32,988 nt of DNA from a virus (taxonomy: Duplodnaviria; Caudoviricetes). Below are positions 1 to 15,606 of the stretch, piece by piece. Each line of letters opens with the position of its first letter. Positions within the stretch are counted from its first letter, which is position 1. The stretch covers positions 1-32,988 of IMG/VR virus record IMGVR_UViG_3300020045_008704, one strand, 5' to 3'. The translations under genes were made by a program, and so were the position numbers. The notes under the pieces were generated by a model, which saw nothing but the letters and a program-made list of their open reading frames with translations, ran no database searches and was not told the DNA's origin.

Positions 1-2
1 TT

Positions 3-131
3 ATTGGACGCGGGGGTAGAGAGAATAACCCGCGTAGAGCTAGTGCGAAAAAAGAAGAACCTGCCCGATTAAAAATTCAGGAAGCTCTTCTCGAACAGCC
101 CGAAGTTCAACAACGCATCACGTCGATGTAA
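3..131 (+). other. Partial plus-strand reading frame running into an apparent inversion/chimera junction
   Basis: Frame open from the window start (IGRGGRENNPRRASAKKEEPARLKIQEALLEQPEVQQRITSM*), protein-like in composition; meets the minus-strand gene head-on where its GGDEF-like similarity stops. Confidence 0.4.
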
Positions 132-2713
132 ACCTGTGCGGGAAGCTTCTCTGACTCATTATAGGCTCGTAGATTCCCAATGCCAGTCAGTTCATGCGTA
201 AGTAATTCCTTACGCAGTTCTTCTGGGGTCATTTCGCTTACTTTTTTACGTTGCGCGATATCAACCCGGCGCTCTTCGACATTTCGGTTAGCCGGAATTT
301 GCGCTGCTTTTACAGAAACATTGTTGCTAACAGGTTGGGTCTTGTCTTCTGTCTTAAGCCAAGCCTTAAATTCTACTATCGGCATCTCGGTAATAGCGCC
401 GATACGATTAGGCTTCGGAGCCCCTTGGGGTAACTCCTGATCATAATTTCTCTGATAAACATCTCGCGCATCCGCTTCCGAAGTTGGGCCTAGAATAACT
501 TTATGCTCATCAAAAGTCTGGTTGCCCGGATCTACCTGATCGATTACGTAAGCTTTATCCGTTGCATCTACCTGTTCCCGCGAAAGCCCCGCAGGAATAA
601 ACACATCCACAGCGTCTCCATCCGCACCTTCCCCGAGTTTAATCTCTCCATAATGATCCTGCATTTGAGTTTTCCAGGAGCCGTCTTTCGCTTCCCGAAT
701 ACTTCCTGCTGGATTTTCAATCGCTATGGGCAGATCCTGAAAATTAACAAAAGCTTTTTTAGTATCTTCAGGTTTCTCTGCGGGTCGGTATCCATTAGCC
801 TCGTGTAATGGGTGTTCTCTGGCAATCGCGTCATCGATAGGAGTCTCGATTATTTTTTGCCCTTCTTCTGGTGATTTTTCTTGCGCGGTTGGGTTCTGGC
901 TTTGGTCATTAACTATCTCTGGTTGTTGGGGTATGGGTGCTTCGGGTGGCGCTTGTTCAATATTCCCGTTCCCTTGTCGGCTTGATTGAAGTCCTTCGCT
1001 ACTGATGGAGGTATCCCCACTTTTTTTGCGAAGCTCGGATTGTGCGCTGCTGCCGTCATTAGGCGGGCTTGCGCCGGGCTCTTGGACGGCATTTTCGCTC
1101 TCCGATAATTGCGCTCTGCGTTCACGTTCTGAATTAATAGCCTGTTTCTGCTCTATGGTCGCTGCTTTTTGGCGAAATAGATTCGTCAGATCCTTCTCAG
1201 ATAACTCCTGAATACCCGCGATAGGTGGTTGCGACAATTCAGCATTTACCCTAATTGCTTCGCCCTCATCAATTATCGGCTGCAATACCCCAGTATCCGC
1301 TCCCGCGATTACTGATCGGGCGGTTACTCCAGGATTTTCTGGCATCGAAGCGATAATGTTTTGAGCGACAGCCGTTTTTGCTTTTTGCACCTGTTCGTCT
1401 ATCGTAGGCGGAATGCGAGAAGTGATATGCGCTTCCATAGCATCCAGAATAGTCTGTGCGGAATCGCCAGCCTTTGACGGGATTTCCAATCTCGCGGCGG
1501 CGTCTGCGAGGCGTTTAGTTACTCGCTGACCACGGCCTGCTTCACCATAAGCCTGTTTATACCGATTTATAAAATCCTGACTCTCACTAAGCAGTGCTTG
1601 CTCTTCGGCATCGGGTGGTTGAAAACCTTGCTCCTGCGGAGCCGTAAACTCCGCAGTAGGAACATTTGTAGCAGGATTTGGCCTAGGTATATTAGACGAA
1701 GGCGCAAAATCTGCGGGTTCAGGCGCTAACCCTCGTTGCTGATCTGTGATCGCTTGCTCTTCCGGAGAAACATTAGGCGACGTAGGTTGTGCATGTATCA
1801 AGGCTCCTGCGGGAAGGCCCATGCCGAGTCCGGCTACGCTACCAAGTGCCGCTGCACTCCCGACACCTTCTCCGATATCTTTGCCCAAGGCGATATTGGA
1901 GGCGGCTTGCTCTTGCCCAGATTGAACTGCTTCCTGGGCCGCTTCAAGTCCCCCAGACTCTAACCCTCTCCTAGCAAAATTCTTAGTCGTCGGTGCAATA
2001 ACTTTCTGCCCACCGATGAATGCCGTAGATACATCCCCAACACCCAGTGCGTTAGCCGCCTTACCGAACCCTCCTGTTACTGCCCCTGTTACGGCTCCGC
2101 TACCCGTTAGCACTGCTATTTGCTCAGGCGTAAGTAATCCGTTTTCAGTTTGCTGCCGAACTTGCTCTATGTTTTGACCTGCAGTTACACCGCCTTCTCC
2201 TATAGCTCCTGCGGCTAGAGGACTTAACTTAGGCGCAAATTTCATGATGCCCTTAGCGATGCCCTGACCACCCAGCATATTCGGCACAGACTCTAAGATG
2301 GTGTGTCCCGCTACGGAGGGGTTCTCGGTTATAGCTTTTAACGTTGGTACAAAACCTTCGGTACTTTGTACGTTTTCAAAAGCCTGTTTCTGCGCAGGGG
2401 AGTAATTTTCAGAAAGAATGTCTTTAGCGCGTTTAAAATCAACCCCACTCTCCTCTAAGGTTTTACCGACCCTGCCACCTGTGGGGATATCGGCTAACCC
2501 TACTAGAGTCTCGGGGAAACCTATCACACCTTTTAATGCGGTTATTCCTACATCTTTTACCCGATCGCTTAAAGAAGTCCCTGGCTCCGGCGATTTCGGC
2601 TTAAAAACGTTAGCGATATCCGCCTCAAAATCATATTCCGGAGAAACATTAGCAATATCCGCCTCGAAATCATACTGTTCTGTTCCTGTAGGTGCCGTTT
2701 CTGGATTCGCCAT
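107..2713 (-). CDS. Large internal virion / polyvalent-type protein: Gly/Ala-rich N-terminus, InPase-like domain, start of a GGDEF-like domain; probably truncated
   Basis: IAIENPAGSIRE...WKTQMQDHYGEI...GADGDAVDVFI...VIDQVDP...FDEHKVILG...ITEMPIVEFKAWL (about nt 355-760) matches the inorganic-pyrophosphatase-like domain of phage polyvalent proteins; LLTHELTGIGNLRAY...VYIDV resembles the GGDEF N-terminus. Confidence 0.8.
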   Translation of the reverse strand: MANPETAPTGTEQYDFEADIANVSPEYDFEADIANVFKPKSPEPGTSLSDRVKDVGITALKGVIGFPETLVGLADIPTGGRVGKTLEESGVDFKRAKDILSENYSPAQKQAFENVQSTEGFVPTLKAITENPSVAGHTILESVPNMLGGQGIAKGIMKFAPKLSPLAAGAIGEGGVTAGQNIEQVRQQTENGLLTPEQIAVLTGSGAVTGAVTGGFGKAANALGVGDVSTAFIGGQKVIAPTTKNFARRGLESGGLEAAQEAVQSGQEQAASNIALGKDIGEGVGSAAALGSVAGLGMGLPAGALIHAQPTSPNVSPEEQAITDQQRGLAPEPADFAPSSNIPRPNPATNVPTAEFTAPQEQGFQPPDAEEQALLSESQDFINRYKQAYGEAGRGQRVTKRLADAAARLEIPSKAGDSAQTILDAMEAHITSRIPPTIDEQVQKAKTAVAQNIIASMPENPGVTARSVIAGADTGVLQPIIDEGEAIRVNAELSQPPIAGIQELSEKDLTNLFRQKAATIEQKQAINSERERRAQLSESENAVQEPGASPPNDGSSAQSELRKKSGDTSISSEGLQSSRQGNGNIEQAPPEAPIPQQPEIVNDQSQNPTAQEKSPEEGQKIIETPIDDAIAREHPLHEANGYRPAEKPEDTKKAFVNFQDLPIAIENPAGSIREAKDGSWKTQMQDHYGEIKLGEGADGDAVDVFIPAGLSREQVDATDKAYVIDQVDPGNQTFDEHKVILGPTSEADARDVYQRNYDQELPQGAPKPNRIGAITEMPIVEFKAWLKTEDKTQPVSNNVSVKAAQIPANRNVEERRVDIAQRKKVSEMTPEELRKELLTHELTGIGNLRAYNESEKLPAQVYIDVMRC
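913..1092 (-). CDS. Small basic phage protein (59 aa, MPSKSPAQARLMTAAAHNPSFAKKVGIP...) nested in the +1 frame of the polyvalent gene
   Basis: GGAG 7 nt upstream of ATG at 1092; sequence resembles, from memory, the phage family MPS(K/T)S.(A/K)Q..(L/F)M.A.AHNP.FAKKVG(I/V)P.SV..(D/E)F..ADKG. Confidence 0.7.
   Translation of the reverse strand: MPSKSPAQARLMTAAAHNPSFAKKVGIPPSVAKDFNQADKGTGILNKRHPKHPYPNNQR
2606..2674. repeat. 39-bp-period duplication encoding YDFEADIANV twice
   Basis: aacgttagcgatatccgcctcaaaatcata and aacattagcaatatccgcctcgaaatcata; 3 synonymous differences. Confidence 0.9.
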
Positions 2714-2765: not shown

Positions 2766-4610
2766 TTATTGCGGGGTAGCATCAGACCCAAATTCTCTAT
2801 CAAATTGCGCCTGTAATTGCTGCTTATACTTCAAGGGTTTAGCTGGGTCATCGAGTAGTTTTAACATGCTCGCTTTGCGCGTCGCTAATTTCTGAGCTTC
2901 TGCCTCTGGGTCTATTACACGCCCCGTACTAGCATCTACTGTCCGTACTACATCCTTAGTTCCTAACATCGGGTTGTCCGGATCTATTGGCTCAGCTACT
3001 ACTTTAACCACGTTATTGGTTTTTTGCGCTAACTCTTGTCTCTTCAACTCCCGATCCGCTGCATCCTTTTCTCGATCATACGCCGCCTTTAATCCGGCAA
3101 TCTCAGATCCTTGCGCCAATGACTTATTCTGGATATCGTATTGCTGCTTACTCTGTTGCAGATGCCCCAAAATACCTAATACTTCTTTAGCCGCATTTTG
3201 TCTGCGCTTCGCGTTTCCAAATTGAGTAGGTGTCATATCTCCGGTAGCGCCGCCGTTAATAGCGATTTCTCGAAGTTTATCGATCTCCGAGGGTTGCGTA
3301 GGTTTCCCATCGCCGTACTTAGCTGTTTGTGCAGCCGTGTTAGCTGCATCTCTAGCAAAACGCGCTTCTTTTTCTGGGTTACTTAAACCGCCAGCGGCCA
3401 CCATTGCATTGACTCGATTAATACCCGCCGTGTTAGCAGAAGTAATTGAACCTTTATCCCCGAAACGCGCAATGTTCTTAGCCCCTGGCAGCATTTGTTC
3501 AGCAGGGAGCGGAATGTTAGATGCCAAAGGAATACCTGCGTTTTTTTGCATTACTTGTGGGACTTTTGATTCGGCTTTAGCAGTTTCAGTTTTAGGAATT
3601 TGTGCGGTATTAACCGCCGTGGGCTGTTCCGGAGATGCGCTAAATAATTTTTCTGCTGGTGTTTGTGCCCCTTCCCCATATAAAAAACTCTTAAAACTAG
3701 CATCAGGTTTTGTAATTATCGCGTTGTAAACCCCTTTAGCGCCTTGCGCTGCTATACCCCCTACATTTTTAGCGCCCTCAGCGTAAGCGCTGCCAAAATC
3801 ACTCATCGCTTTGCCTATAGCGGGTACTACAGGAAGCCTTTTATACTCAGAAACGTAATTAGTTAAGGGCCCCGGAGTCACGGGTTTTTGCAATTCCGTA
3901 ATAGGATGAGGCACCTTATCCTTGTCTACTTCGCCCCCATCCTGAAAACCTTGTAGATCAGTATTCTCCAAAAATGAGATATTCCCTACTTGACTCGGGG
4001 TGGAATTCGCAAACATTTTTGCGCGTAGCTCGGTATCCGTCGGCCCCGCCGCACGCCGCATCGCAAAAATTCCTTTTACTTCACCCCCATTTTGATATCC
4101 CTGTAAAATGCTCCCCTGCAGCGGATTATTTTTTAATGGGGTATTCGTACCGATAAAACCGGTATCTAAATTATTAATACCCGAAGTTCCATAACTCACC
4201 GGCGGCGCAAAGGAGCTCGCGGATGACGTGTCATAAACGGGTTTTACTGCGGCTCCGATAGCTGATTGTGCGCCTGTATCGCCTATGATCTCTTTAGCGA
4301 TATTATTCGTATTTTGGCCTTCTGTTTGAAAAACAGGGGAAGGTGTACTTATCGTAGGCGCCGAAGATAAACTGAAAGGAGTACTCCTTGGTGTTTGGCG
4401 ATCCGAGAAAGAATTTCCGTTCCGATAAATACCTGAAACTAAACCTCCATTTTGATAGCCCTGCACGTTTTGTTGTCTCATCTTTAAACCTGCTTGATTT
4501 GCTTTTACAAGATTATCGGCGCCTATCAGTGCTACTGCTTCTCGGTTCATGACGTGCTCCCCCGGTGTTAAGAGAGCGGGTACGGTATCTGTGGGGCCGG
4601 GTTTTGGCAT
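2766..4610 (-). CDS. Putative internal virion/ejection protein with repeated G(Y/F)Q(N/D)GGxV motifs
   Basis: N-terminal GPTDTVPALLTPGEHVMN...IGADNL motif of the kind seen in phage DNA-delivery proteins; three GYQNGG/GFQDGG copies; coiled-coil C-terminus; adjacent to the polyvalent gene. Confidence 0.6.
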   Translation of the reverse strand: MPKPGPTDTVPALLTPGEHVMNREAVALIGADNLVKANQAGLKMRQQNVQGYQNGGLVSGIYRNGNSFSDRQTPRSTPFSLSSAPTISTPSPVFQTEGQNTNNIAKEIIGDTGAQSAIGAAVKPVYDTSSASSFAPPVSYGTSGINNLDTGFIGTNTPLKNNPLQGSILQGYQNGGEVKGIFAMRRAAGPTDTELRAKMFANSTPSQVGNISFLENTDLQGFQDGGEVDKDKVPHPITELQKPVTPGPLTNYVSEYKRLPVVPAIGKAMSDFGSAYAEGAKNVGGIAAQGAKGVYNAIITKPDASFKSFLYGEGAQTPAEKLFSASPEQPTAVNTAQIPKTETAKAESKVPQVMQKNAGIPLASNIPLPAEQMLPGAKNIARFGDKGSITSANTAGINRVNAMVAAGGLSNPEKEARFARDAANTAAQTAKYGDGKPTQPSEIDKLREIAINGGATGDMTPTQFGNAKRRQNAAKEVLGILGHLQQSKQQYDIQNKSLAQGSEIAGLKAAYDREKDAADRELKRQELAQKTNNVVKVVAEPIDPDNPMLGTKDVVRTVDASTGRVIDPEAEAQKLATRKASMLKLLDDPAKPLKYKQQLQAQFDREFGSDATPQ

Positions 4611-6555: not shown

Positions 6556-7095
6556 GTGAAGATCCAAATACCCGATTATCTAACCCAAGAAAAACTAACC
6601 GTCGCCCTAAAACAAATAATTCCTGCTGAAGATTGGATTGGGGAAGAGCTAAAAGTTCCGGGAACTCGATGCCGCTGGGATATGGGGTATATCTATCGCG
6701 GTAAAACATATATTGTAGAGTTCGACGGTGATCAACACTATCGCGATAGCATCGTTATACGTAATGATAAAATAAAAGATTTGACAGCCCTAAGATGCAA
6801 TTTCAAAGTCATACGAATTCCTTACTGGCTACAGCTAACACCCCAAACTTTAGAGCTACTATTTAACATAAATGCCGAGATAGAACAGAATTTTTCGCAC
6901 GGCTTCGTAGCCTCTAAAATTTTCCCTGCATCTTACTGCGAATACGGGACGTATCGATTCGAAAGAGAATTCAATAGCCTACCACGAAACATAAAACAGG
7001 AAATAACTGAGACTTTGCGCACCCAGATCTTAAAATACGATTTTGAAACTGTCCTACCCACAAGCTTATTAGCAATTATGCCGAAGTTGCTATAG
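6556..7095 (+). CDS. DUF559/Vsr-like (PD-(D/E)XK-type) endonuclease; the only well-supported complete plus-strand gene
   Basis: EELKV...RWDMGY...IVEFDGDQHY...DKIKD...FKVIRIPYW pattern; GGAG RBS at 6545-6548 before GTG; own promoter. Confidence 0.75.
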   Translation: MKIQIPDYLTQEKLTVALKQIIPAEDWIGEELKVPGTRCRWDMGYIYRGKTYIVEFDGDQHYRDSIVIRNDKIKDLTALRCNFKVIRIPYWLQLTPQTLELLFNINAEIEQNFSHGFVASKIFPASYCEYGTYRFEREFNSLPRNIKQEITETLRTQILKYDFETVLPTSLLAIMPKLL

Positions 7096-13746: not shown

Positions 13747-15606
13747 TTACGCATCTTCACATATCACTGTATCAGATCGACTTTCTGCGAGGATTTTATG
13801 CCCCCTAGACTCCACGATAACCCATTGTACAGATTCCTTCCCTGCTAAAAGAGAAACTACACCTGCATATAAAGTTACTGGAGTTCCGTTCACTAAAACG
13901 GAAATAGCGGTCAGCGTACTTCCTGTTAGACCTGTTATCGCAGTTCCTTCTAAAGCGGGCGCTAAAGCCGCTTGTAACGCCCCTAAATCTAAAGCCGAGA
14001 AAGAACCTGAAAGACTGTTTGCTATCGCCGAGGTTATTATCCCTTGCACAGCGGATAAAGCACTTCCCGTCAAGGGTACTGTTACATCCGATGACGTTAT
14101 TGTTATTGTACCTTGTGCAGAAGTTAATAATGCTCCTGATAACGCGGTACTAGTCGCTGCAAGGATAGCGTCACTGAAGCTGGACAGGATAGCTCCGGTA
14201 AGCGCTTTAGCGATATTTACACCTAATGACCCCGGGGATAATATCTCCTCTAAACCGACTAAAGCGACTACCGATGAAGATATCGGCGTTAAAACGCCTG
14301 TATTCGTTGTAACCGCGCTTCCGGACAACTGTACAAAAGTACCCGTAGTAGCTGTTACCGTTCCTGTTTGGCCCGCAGCGGCAGCCCCCAATAAAAAGGC
14401 AGCAGAGTCTACCGTCAAAAGACCCTCGGCAGAAGCTAAAGAAACTCCAATCAGAGTTGGGTTACTAGCTGGCTGAATATCCCCAGTACTTCCGGCAGCG
14501 GCTATCCCCGTGATAGCAATTCCAACGAGGGGTGTTACTGCTCCTGTAGAAAAGGTAGCGGCCGCCCCTGTCAAAGCCGCTGATATGCCAGAATCTGTCG
14601 AAGCGGTTACTGTACCCGCAGAAAAAGTTGATGCTGCGCCGGTTAGAGAAATCTCCGCCGAAGCGGTTACTGTACCCGCAGAAAAAGTTGATGCTGCGCC
14701 GGTTAGAGAAATCTCCGCCGAAGCGGTTACTGTACTCGCAGAAAGAGTTGATGCTGCGCCGGTTAGAGAAATCTCCGCCGAAGTGGTTACTGTACCCGCA
14801 GAAAGAGTTGATGCTGCGCCGGTTAATGCGCTCCCGCCCGCCGCCGCATTAGCGAAAAAATGAGGGCTAATGTCGTTTTGTTCATATAATTGCCACGGGT
14901 TGATTGACAGCGCCTTAAACATAGCCTCAGGCATGAGCTTTGTTCCGCGCGCCACCATGCCAACAATTTCTGAGCCTATTACAGGACTGGCACCACGAAC
15001 AATCGCACCTATGGATTCATGAACAAACGTCGCTGTAAAAGTCGTATCCGCAGAGCCTGTTAGGTCGGTCGTGTATTTTTCGCCATTGACATAAATGTAC
15101 GCGTCCGCTTTGAGATTGGACGGAAATACAGCAACCACGGTAACGGGACGGTTAGCTGTTCCTGCAATAGCTGTTTTTGTAATAGCAGCGCCCGAATTAG
15201 CGCCGCGTAAAGTCGCTGATATTTTGTTATCGGTGTTATTGCCTGATGATATGGTGACATAGGCTCCTGCCGATGCTGCGCTACTGCCCATTGCATAAAC
15301 GGGCTTTGAATTGCCGTTAATAACGCTCGGTACAAAATGAGCCATCATCCATAACGGCTGCGCGGCATAACTTATAGTTCGATCGTAATAGCCAGTTGTG
15401 CCGTTACTCTTGATCCCCAGTATATTGATAAACCGTCGATCTACAGTTCCTGTTTTTGTATAGGGGGTATGTATCTTGTCTGCTTTATCATTTGCGTTTT
15501 CTGGAAATAGCGTTAATACCCGTGTGCTATCAACGTACGGGTAGAACGTTTTTGATAGCCGAACCGGATCGTTCGGCTGGGATAACATAACCTTATGTTT
15601 ATGCAT
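13747..15606 (-). CDS. Tail/whisker protein: lectin(LamG)-like N-terminal domain plus an Ala/Gly/Ser/Thr-rich LTG..A....G repeat stalk (619 aa)
   Basis: IYVNGEK...IGA...ALSINPWQLY resembles a LamG-like C-terminus; many imperfect 20-aa repeats follow. Confidence 0.6.
   Translation of the reverse strand: MHKHKVMLSQPNDPVRLSKTFYPYVDSTRVLTLFPENANDKADKIHTPYTKTGTVDRRFINILGIKSNGTTGYYDRTISYAAQPLWMMAHFVPSVINGNSKPVYAMGSSAASAGAYVTISSGNNTDNKISATLRGANSGAAITKTAIAGTANRPVTVVAVFPSNLKADAYIYVNGEKYTTDLTGSADTTFTATFVHESIGAIVRGASPVIGSEIVGMVARGTKLMPEAMFKALSINPWQLYEQNDISPHFFANAAAGGSALTGAASTLSAGTVTTSAEISLTGAASTLSASTVTASAEISLTGAASTFSAGTVTASAEISLTGAASTFSAGTVTASTDSGISAALTGAAATFSTGAVTPLVGIAITGIAAAGSTGDIQPASNPTLIGVSLASAEGLLTVDSAAFLLGAAAAGQTGTVTATTGTFVQLSGSAVTTNTGVLTPISSSVVALVGLEEILSPGSLGVNIAKALTGAILSSFSDAILAATSTALSGALLTSAQGTITITSSDVTVPLTGSALSAVQGIITSAIANSLSGSFSALDLGALQAALAPALEGTAITGLTGSTLTAISVLVNGTPVTLYAGVVSLLAGKESVQWVIVESRGHKILAESRSDTVICEDA
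14599..14825. repeat. In-frame 60-bp tandem repeat, about 3.8 copies (EISLTGAASTFSAGTVTASA)
   Basis: Near-identical consecutive 60-nt units with a few substitutions. Confidence 0.95.

What the first reader, a model, noticed from the sequence alone, without database searches (positions are those of the whole stretch)
913..1103. A recognisable small phage gene overprinted inside the giant virion-protein gene
Seen: a 59-codon ORF with GGAG-7nt-ATG lies wholly in the +1 frame of the 868-aa gene (offset 1621 nt). The host frame there reads as a disordered linker (SENAVQEPGASPPNDGSSAQSELRKKSG...), while the nested frame reads as an ordered basic peptide (MPSKSPAQARLMTAAAHNPSFAKKVGIPPSVAKDFNQADKG). 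From memory, not a search, this matches a small protein found as a free-standing gene in many uncultured phages, and ENA(V/I)QE-type linkers recur in polyvalent proteins. Inference: the linker is the shifted-frame shadow of a captured gene, and such nested genes may be a widespread, unannotated dual-coding system. The peptide could bind DNA or partner the acidic ejection protein. This is the best novelty candidate in the window.
Basis: partly seen in the sequence, partly recalled or inferred. Interest (0 to 1): 0.85.

Follow-up and report, generated by a model that had tools for sequence, protein, structure and literature searches.

The report
Free phage gene inside giant gene
A small gene that stands alone in many phages here lies whole, in a shifted reading frame, inside a giant phage protein gene, and dozens of other phage sequences show the same nesting, so these giant genes likely swallowed it and still make both proteins.

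Summary
Confirmed. A 59-codon gene (913-1092, minus strand; GGAG-7-ATG) lies in the +1 frame of a polyvalent virion-protein gene. That gene is cut short at the contig end; its orthologues have 3004-3371 aa. The small protein belongs to a large family (PHROG 16759; phiKZ gp165.1; at least 1213 clusters). Members stand alone, cap larger proteins such as virion protein CBB_322, or are nested. With DNA in hand, 37 distinct copies of this family and its MPFKS sister family (window included) are nested in long ORFs, all in +1 and none in +2. Substitutions spare the small protein (82% versus 48% identity), while the host frame only avoids stops and aromatic residues. The giant's linker is therefore the passenger frame, which reverses classical overprinting. 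One relative has an HNH endonuclease gene inserted in frame at the same site. Translation and function are untested; a basic three-helix DNA-binding head protein is my best guess. My literature searches found no description. This scan has reported nested genes in giant DarB-like phage genes on other DNA before.

The parts
913..1092 (-). Nested 59-aa gene of the PHROG 16759 / phiKZ gp165.1 family; basic (pI 10.8); predicted three-helix core at residues 6-39 with a variable K/R/P tail
1100..1103 (-). Shine-Dalgarno-like GGAG, 7 nt before the nested ATG; an SD-like word is present in 10 of 10 nested MPSKS-type copies
107..2713 (-). Host ORF: N-terminal 868 aa of a polyvalent / DarB-like virion protein (pI 4.7), likely truncated at the contig end
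1748..2569 (-). Gly/Ala-rich N-terminal domain of the host (residues 49-322, phrog_30335)
914..1093 (-). Host residues 541-600: acidic, low-complexity linker that is the shifted-frame reading of the nested gene
353..766 (-). InPase domain of polyvalent proteins (PF18823; residues 650-787; 113.6 bits against a cut-off of 26.8)
119..208 (-). Stub that aligns with P0160 up to the first residues of its GGDEF domain, where the host ORF breaks off
3..128 (+). Probable inverted fragment of a downstream part of the same giant gene (assembly or amplification chimera; weak match)
850..909 (-). 19-codon K/R-rich +1 ORF starting 3 nt after the nested stop; unproven, may be a by-product of the Q/E-rich linker

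Best explanation
The 59-codon ORF is a conserved member of a widespread phage gene family, lying whole in the +1 frame of a giant polyvalent virion-protein gene; it is likely translated from its own internal SD-ATG on the same late mRNA, was likely absorbed by the giant gene from a free-standing state, and its product likely works as a basic DNA-binding protein inside the phage head. Shown: family membership, nesting, and selection on the nested frame. Inferred: absorption happened when an upstream frame lost its stop, ran through the small gene and joined the next coding block, or when the small gene was inserted in frame into an existing linker. The passenger frame is tolerated because it reads as an A/G/Q/E/P-rich flexible spacer. 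Selection then purged T from the nested third positions, which removes host stops and aromatic residues. Inferred, weaker (about 0.45): the product neutralises or tethers packaged DNA or helps load cargo, as its fusion to virion proteins and the head-gene neighbours of free copies suggest.
For: Selection (9 nested copies, 41 codons, 36 non-independent pairs): identity is 82% in the nested frame and 48% in the host frame; differences by nested codon position are 0.17, 0.14 and 0.44; changes silent in the nested frame but not the host run at 0.72 per site against 0.11 for the reverse class. Host-frame tolerance: T at nested third positions is 3.0% in 10 nested against 20.9% in 147 non-nested MPSKS copies, and 2.4% in 23 against 16.8% in 65 MPFKS copies; the shadow has 0% C and W and at most 0.3% F and Y. 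Spread: 4 of 80 IMG/VR loci, 1 of 12 GTDB loci, 2 of 76 unique metagenome loci, and 25 of 100 unique MPFKS loci with >=300 open codons on both sides. All are +1, although in non-nested copies the +2 frame is open more often (34 of 136 and 35 of 65) than the +1 frame (18 of 136 and 11 of 65). A profile of the host-frame shadow hits 99 clusters at 50% identity, 43 of them >=1000 aa; 10 of the 16 long ones scanned carry polyvalent-type domains. Capture in progress: L008 differs from its relative L368 (78% nt identity upstream) by a 546-nt in-frame insert holding a +1-frame HNH_3 gene (44.4 bits, cut-off 24.8) whose TAG abuts the small gene's ATG. L384 shows an upstream ORF reading through the family core and then stopping. 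One origin of the nested MPFKS copies is rejected (p-AU 0.014). Head link: the family is the N-terminus of CBB gp322; CBB_322 was found in virions with 30 unique peptides (PMC5259590 passages). Free copies lie next to portal or major head genes in BUCT555 (position between terminase and capsid genes) and in 6 of 28 loci scanned. The AlphaFold model has three helices at mean pLDDT 86.
Against: No translation or expression evidence for any nested copy. One origin of the nested MPSKS copies is not rejected (p-AU 0.418); the trees have 44-50 columns and no root, so the direction of capture rests on constraint and distribution. The selection signal is weaker for MPFKS copies (0.54 against 0.32, ungapped and saturated). 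No free copy was found between two genes matching the two halves of a host; only L091 has a host-like giant gene as neighbour. The 201phi2-1 record marks gp382 as found in virions by mass spectrometry but not the homologue gp383. The CBB table does not say whether peptides cover the N-terminal module, and I assumed RefSeq gp322 equals CBB_322. DNA binding rests on charge and on non-significant HTH-like Foldseek rows (best E 2.6). The 89% against 21.5% encodability test on protein-only hits is partly circular, and one hit (P0147) is false.
Confidence: 0.62

Rival explanations
1. The nested protein is a dedicated chaperone or loading partner of the giant protein, and nesting keeps the two genes co-expressed and inseparable (in the manner of P1 Ulx for DarB; recalled, no call).
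For: The nested protein is basic (pI 10.8) and the host acidic (pI 4.7). Its position after the N-terminal region is fairly constant (median host residue 673, quartiles 572-778). In Rhizobium phage RHph_TM3_14A the free gene lies 200 nt after an InPase-bearing giant gene.
Against: Free copies in phiKZ, 201phi2-1 and BUCT555 have no giant gene in the regions fetched. The giant genes of six cultured phages plus L091 carry no detectable copy in either shifted frame. Host domains downstream of the nested gene differ widely.
Confidence: 0.17
2. The family was born de novo by overprinting inside a polyvalent-protein linker and later escaped as free genes and N-terminal modules.
For: Q/E/G-rich linkers give K/R-rich +1 frames by codon structure. 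One origin of the nested MPSKS copies is not rejected. The trees are unrooted.
Against: Constraint lies almost wholly on the nested frame. Free and fused copies are far more numerous and include jumbo phages. Nested copies are scattered among free ones (4 and 11 label changes). An HNH gene, a family known as free-standing, was inserted at the same site.
Confidence: 0.1
3. The +1 ORF is reached by programmed frameshifting, giving a shorter virion protein with a basic C-terminal tail rather than a separate small protein.
For: The family does occur fused to other proteins. In the PBC5 record the upstream half of the giant gene runs in frame into a different nested family.
Against: An SD-like word and a start codon are kept in 10 of 10 nested MPSKS copies. 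Known fusions place the module at the N-terminus, starting with its own Met. In several copies the +1 frame has a stop just before the ATG. No conserved slippery site was seen by eye, and none was searched for.
Confidence: 0.07
4. The ORF is an inert relic or an artefact of this contig.
For: 14% of synonymous shuffles give an ORF of this length. The contig end looks chimeric. No expression data exist.
Against: Purifying selection in the nested frame across phages with 43-55% GC. Two orthologues of the window's host keep the shadow at the same place (P0123, 34 of 37 core residues encodable; P0160, 31 of 37).
Confidence: 0.04

Closest known systems
Embedded same-strand phage genes: Rz1 inside Rz (annotated so in PEp14); phiX174 E inside D and comS inside srfAB (recalled, no call)
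   Same: A small gene with its own start lies wholly inside a larger gene, in a shifted frame on the same strand.
   Different: In those cases the embedded gene is usually taken as the newcomer and as tied to its host gene. Here the nested gene belongs to a large free-standing family, carries the stronger constraint, occurs in hosts that fall into 3 similarity clusters plus 7 singletons, and the site accepts further genes.
Phage-type polyvalent proteins (Iyer et al. 2017, PMC5512222; abstract and searched passages seen)
   Same: Giant virion-type protein with InPase; orthologues and other hosts carry LPD38, LPD39, LPD23, ART-PolyVal, ddrB-ParB, SLT, methylase and helicase domains.
   Different: A term search of the main text found 0 occurrences of 'overlap', 'linker', 'disordered' or 'low-complexity'; coding in the spacers is not described in what I saw. 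Its supplements were not examined.
PHROG 16759 (phiKZ gp165.1, 201phi2-1 gp383, PhiPA3 gp316), N-termini of PHROG 22033 and 25121 (CBB gp322), and the sister family PHROG 1375 (MPFKS type)
   Same: Same sequence family. The two types align profile to profile at 97.4% probability.
   Different: In the records examined these are free hypothetical genes or N-terminal modules; none is annotated as nested, and no function is given.
DUF3008 (PF11450)
   Same: An ESM Atlas cluster at 0.92 has DUF3008 on 23% of its members.
   Different: 0 of 128 and 0 of 98 aligned members matched DUF3008 by hmmscan; a lead only.

Membership tests
PHROG 16759 small-protein family | Profile match over the ~43-residue core | tested here: met
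   E 1.1e-20, residues 1-43
Nested (embedded) overlapping gene | Whole ORF inside a larger ORF, shifted frame, own start signal | tested here: met
Nested (embedded) overlapping gene | Purifying selection on the nested frame | tested here: met
   0.72 against 0.11 changes per site; 82% against 48% identity
Nested (embedded) overlapping gene | Host frame kept open and shaped by selection across the overlap | tested here: met
   Hundreds of open codons with Pfam domains on both sides; T depletion at host first positions. Openness itself was the criterion for calling a copy nested.
Nested (embedded) overlapping gene | Both products translated | not testable with these tools
   needs ribosome profiling or mass spectrometry
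De novo overprinted gene (classical overprinting) | Nested frame is younger and has a narrower distribution than the host frame | tested here: not met
   The family is widespread as free genes where no host frame exists; trees unrooted
Phage polyvalent protein (host) | Very large protein combining unrelated domains typical of the class | tested here: met
   InPase in the window; orthologue P0160 has InPase, GGDEF and LPD39; the window copy is truncated
Phage polyvalent protein (host) | Packaged in the virion and injected | not testable with these tools
   predicted for the class in PMC5512222; position after tail and head genes
Helix-turn-helix DNA-binding proteins | Significant fold match to an HTH domain | tested here: inconclusive
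   Foldseek best E 2.6 with many HTH rows; VIA-align best Z 3.4, unrelated helical proteins
DUF3008 | Pfam match above cut-off | tested here: not met

The most novel reading that the evidence does not exclude
Giant polyvalent phage genes grow by swallowing whole neighbouring genes: the giant reads the captured gene's DNA in another frame as a flexible linker, while the captured gene keeps its own start and protein. Linkers thereby become internal expression slots that accept new passengers, even a homing endonuclease. One 'gene' is then a hidden operon, and a class of phage proteins, including products of cultured phages, is missing from annotations.
Probability: 0.55. Interest if true: 0.87.

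Novelty: new variant of a known kind. Interest (0 to 1): 0.74.

Why it matters
Overlapping genes in viruses are usually explained by a new gene arising inside an old one. This case points to the opposite route, an old gene engulfed by a growing neighbour, and the family is also found free, so the direction can be tested. It explains the recurrent N/D-A-x-Q-E linkers of giant phage virion proteins as shadows of a conserved gene. It offers a mechanism for how polyvalent proteins assemble, and it implies unannotated proteins in many phage genomes. A second nested family sits in the DarB-like genes of cultured phages (PEp14, VvAW1, Itty13, Atu_ph08, SopranoGao), and free homologues exist in phiKZ and BUCT555, so expression and function are directly testable.

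Tried and rejected
DNA of close orthologues of the window's host: scans of viral contigs and metagenome contigs found none, so SD, ATG and stop could not be read for P0123 or P0160. Sequencing runs: no RNA holder listed; one DNA run holds two 151-base contigs, uninformative. Plasmids: no match. PDB by sequence profile: 0 matches; by fold: none at E<=1e-3 and none at Z>=5. Pfam: no family for the peptide. A split 'pre-fusion' arrangement was sought in 249 non-nested loci with 2.5-8 kb flanks and not found. No MP[S/F]KS copy in the shifted frames of the giant genes of six cultured phages plus L091. phiKZ gp165.1: 0 papers and no row in 5 supplementary files of PMC10449902, one of them cut when stored. 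DUF3008: 0 papers. Searches for a published description returned listings of general overlapping-gene papers, none on this system by title or abstract start; the library lacks most subscription journals. ORF length alone was rejected as evidence. +1-frame copies L042, L057, L072, L077 and L225 were not counted as nested, because their open frame upstream is short and looks non-coding. No complex prediction was obtained, so oligomeric state and partners remain open.

Full report
Observation. The ORF is at 913-1092 on the minus strand, 59 codons plus TAG, with GGAG seven bases before the ATG. It starts at residue 541 of the ORF 107-2713, in the +1 frame. The window is a 33-kb phage record, 36% complete, with terminase, SU10-type portal, head, tail and lysis genes on the minus strand. 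The length of the ORF is not evidence: 282 of 2000 synonymous shuffles of the host gene give an equally long +1 ORF with SD and ATG.

The small protein. It has 1213 homologous clusters among 1214 candidates and matches PHROG 16759 and the N-termini of two virion-protein PHROGs. In cultured phages 152 records match, including phiKZ gp165.1, 201phi2-1 gp383, PhiPA3 gp316, BUCT555, Rhizobium phage RHph_TM3_14A and the N-terminus of CBB gp322. The five records I opened show free genes or an N-terminal module. A sister family starting MPFKS aligns with it at 97.4% probability, with intermediate members. AlphaFold gives helices 6-17, 19-25 and 29-39 at mean pLDDT 86. No solved structure matches significantly; the best BFVD matches are family members. 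The protein is basic, pI 10.8.

The host. It carries an InPase domain and matches DarB-like PHROGs, which places it among the phage polyvalent proteins of Iyer et al. (PMC5512222; abstract and searched passages seen). Two orthologues of 3004 and 3371 aa keep the same linker at the same place. The window's ORF ends where P0160's GGDEF domain begins, and the first ~128 bases read on the plus strand weakly match a later part of P0123. The 868-aa length is therefore probably a contig-end artefact, about 800 bases from the nested gene.

How common the nesting is. With the peptide as query, 4 of 80 IMG/VR loci, 1 of 12 analysed GTDB loci (of 13; one was cut off) and 2 of 76 unique metagenome loci have the gene in the +1 frame of a long ORF. 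Targeted scans added more; among 172 unique copies, 9 were nested, window included. A DNA pattern for SD plus an MPFKS start gave 120 loci, 100 unique. Of these, 33 were flagged, all +1; 25 have at least 300 open codons on each side, 7 are short loci open to both ends, and 1 is borderline. The total is 35 plus 2. A profile of the host-frame shadow found 99 clusters among 1.84 billion representatives. Of these, 43 are at least 1000 aa long, with the shadow at median residue 673; one of them is a false hit. Of the 56 shorter ones, 40 carry it within 60 residues of their end, either as read-through tails or as contig-cut fragments. I scanned 16 of the 43 long ones against Pfam: 10 have polyvalent-type domains, 5 have none, and 1 is the false hit.

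Which frame is constrained. Across 9 nested copies and 41 codons, the nested peptide is 82% identical and the host peptide 48%. Changes silent in the nested frame and non-silent in the host run at 0.72 per site; the reverse class runs at 0.11 (pairs are not independent). The host frame still shapes the DNA. T at nested third positions, which are host first positions, falls from 21% to 3% (MPSKS) and from 17% to 2% (MPFKS), removing stops and C, W, F, Y. The +1 preference is not due to openness, because in non-nested copies the other frame is open more often. An SD-like word is present in 10 of 10 nested MPSKS copies against 50 of 147 non-nested ones. The MPFKS selection signal outside the search pattern is weaker (0.54 against 0.32).

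Origin. Nested and free copies are interleaved on unrooted 44-50-column trees: 4 label changes for MPSKS (free copies thinned to 65 of 147) and 11 for MPFKS; short undecidable loci were left out. One origin is rejected for MPFKS (p-AU 0.014) but not for MPSKS (0.418). Host N-terminal parts form 3 clusters and 7 singletons. L248 has an MPFKS copy near the start of a 395-aa gene of another kind. Two cases show steps of capture. In L384 an upstream ORF of about 207 codons reads through the family core before stopping. L008 differs from L368 by a 546-nt in-frame insert containing a +1-frame HNH endonuclease gene that ends directly before the small gene's ATG, with the giant frame open throughout. 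I found no free copy flanked by two half-hosts, so fusion by read-through and in-frame insertion cannot be told apart.

How it likely works. Ribosomes would initiate at the internal SD-ATG on the late mRNA and make the small protein, while others read through in the giant frame and make an acidic spacer between the N-terminal virion domain and the enzyme domains. For function, I commit at about 0.45 to a basic head-internal DNA-binding or loading module. The family caps CBB gp322, and CBB_322 was found in virions with 30 unique peptides and 43.57% coverage (PMC5259590, passages seen; equal numbering assumed, coverage of the module unknown). Free copies adjoin portal or major head genes in 6 of 28 loci scanned, and other late genes in several more. 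Against this, 201phi2-1 gp383 lacks the mass-spectrometry note that gp382 has, and the HTH likeness is not significant.

Beyond this family. A second nested family of about 105 aa lies in L081 and, with SD and ATG in the +1 frame, inside the giant genes of PEp14, VvAW1, Itty13, Atu_ph08 and SopranoGao, unannotated in those records; in PBC5 the record has it fused in frame to the upstream half. Earlier notes of this scan report such nested genes on other DNA; I treat them as leads, having reached the second family before reading them.

Novelty and verdict. Embedded genes are known (Rz1 in Rz is annotated; other examples are recalled). My paper searches (listings only, plus passages of PMC13299392) found no description of nested genes in polyvalent proteins. 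The library misses most subscription journals, and I did not see the supplements of PMC5512222. I class this as a new variant of a known kind: a real, conserved, widespread nested gene whose host frame looks derived. Interest 0.74; expression and function are untested.

Noticed in passing
L008:3605-4000 (+), also L373; compare L368: An HNH_3 endonuclease gene lies in the +1 frame of the giant gene, in a 546-nt in-frame insert absent from the relative L368, and ends directly before the small gene's ATG.
   Followed up: yes
L081:10453-10773; L357, L359, L360, L361, L362 at 12001: A second nested family (~105 aa, SD and ATG, +1 frame) lies inside DarB-like giant genes of cultured phages PEp14, VvAW1, Itty13, Atu_ph08 and SopranoGao and is not annotated there.
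   Followed up: partly
L358:5767-21515 (PBC5): The two annotated DarB-like genes look like one gene with a frameshift; the upstream half runs in frame into the second nested family. It may be a sequence error or a real split.
   Followed up: no
L360:6987-19323 (Itty13): An open frame of at least 4112 codons on the strand of the virion genes is annotated in RefSeq as three hypothetical genes on the opposite strand.
   Followed up: no
L357 host residue 822; L358 second gene residue 1540; L359 residues 475 and 562; L081:9043-9180: Further +1-frame ORFs of 42-76 aa with SD and ATG in giant genes; several read like real proteins.
   Followed up: no
L248:1478-2665 (-): An MPFKS copy is nested near the start of a 395-aa acidic gene downstream of a portal gene (scaffold-like by recall), a different kind of host.
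   Followed up: partly
window 1-128: The contig end appears to hold an inverted piece of the giant gene, which creates a false stop at 107.
   Followed up: partly
window 850-909 (-): A 19-codon K/R-rich +1 ORF follows the nested stop by 3 nt; both orthologues keep a similar host-frame N-D stretch there.
   Followed up: no
window 2766-4610 (-): The 614-aa gene upstream of the host repeats a short Q-[N/D]-G-G motif; similar GG motifs follow the MPSKS module in many fused copies and could be processing sites.
   Followed up: no
window 6556-7095 (+): An HNH-like nuclease gene lies on the strand opposite to the virion genes.
   Followed up: no
window about 14500-14860: The 619-aa gene at 13747-15606 (-) contains a tandem peptide repeat, visible in the translations.
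   Followed up: no
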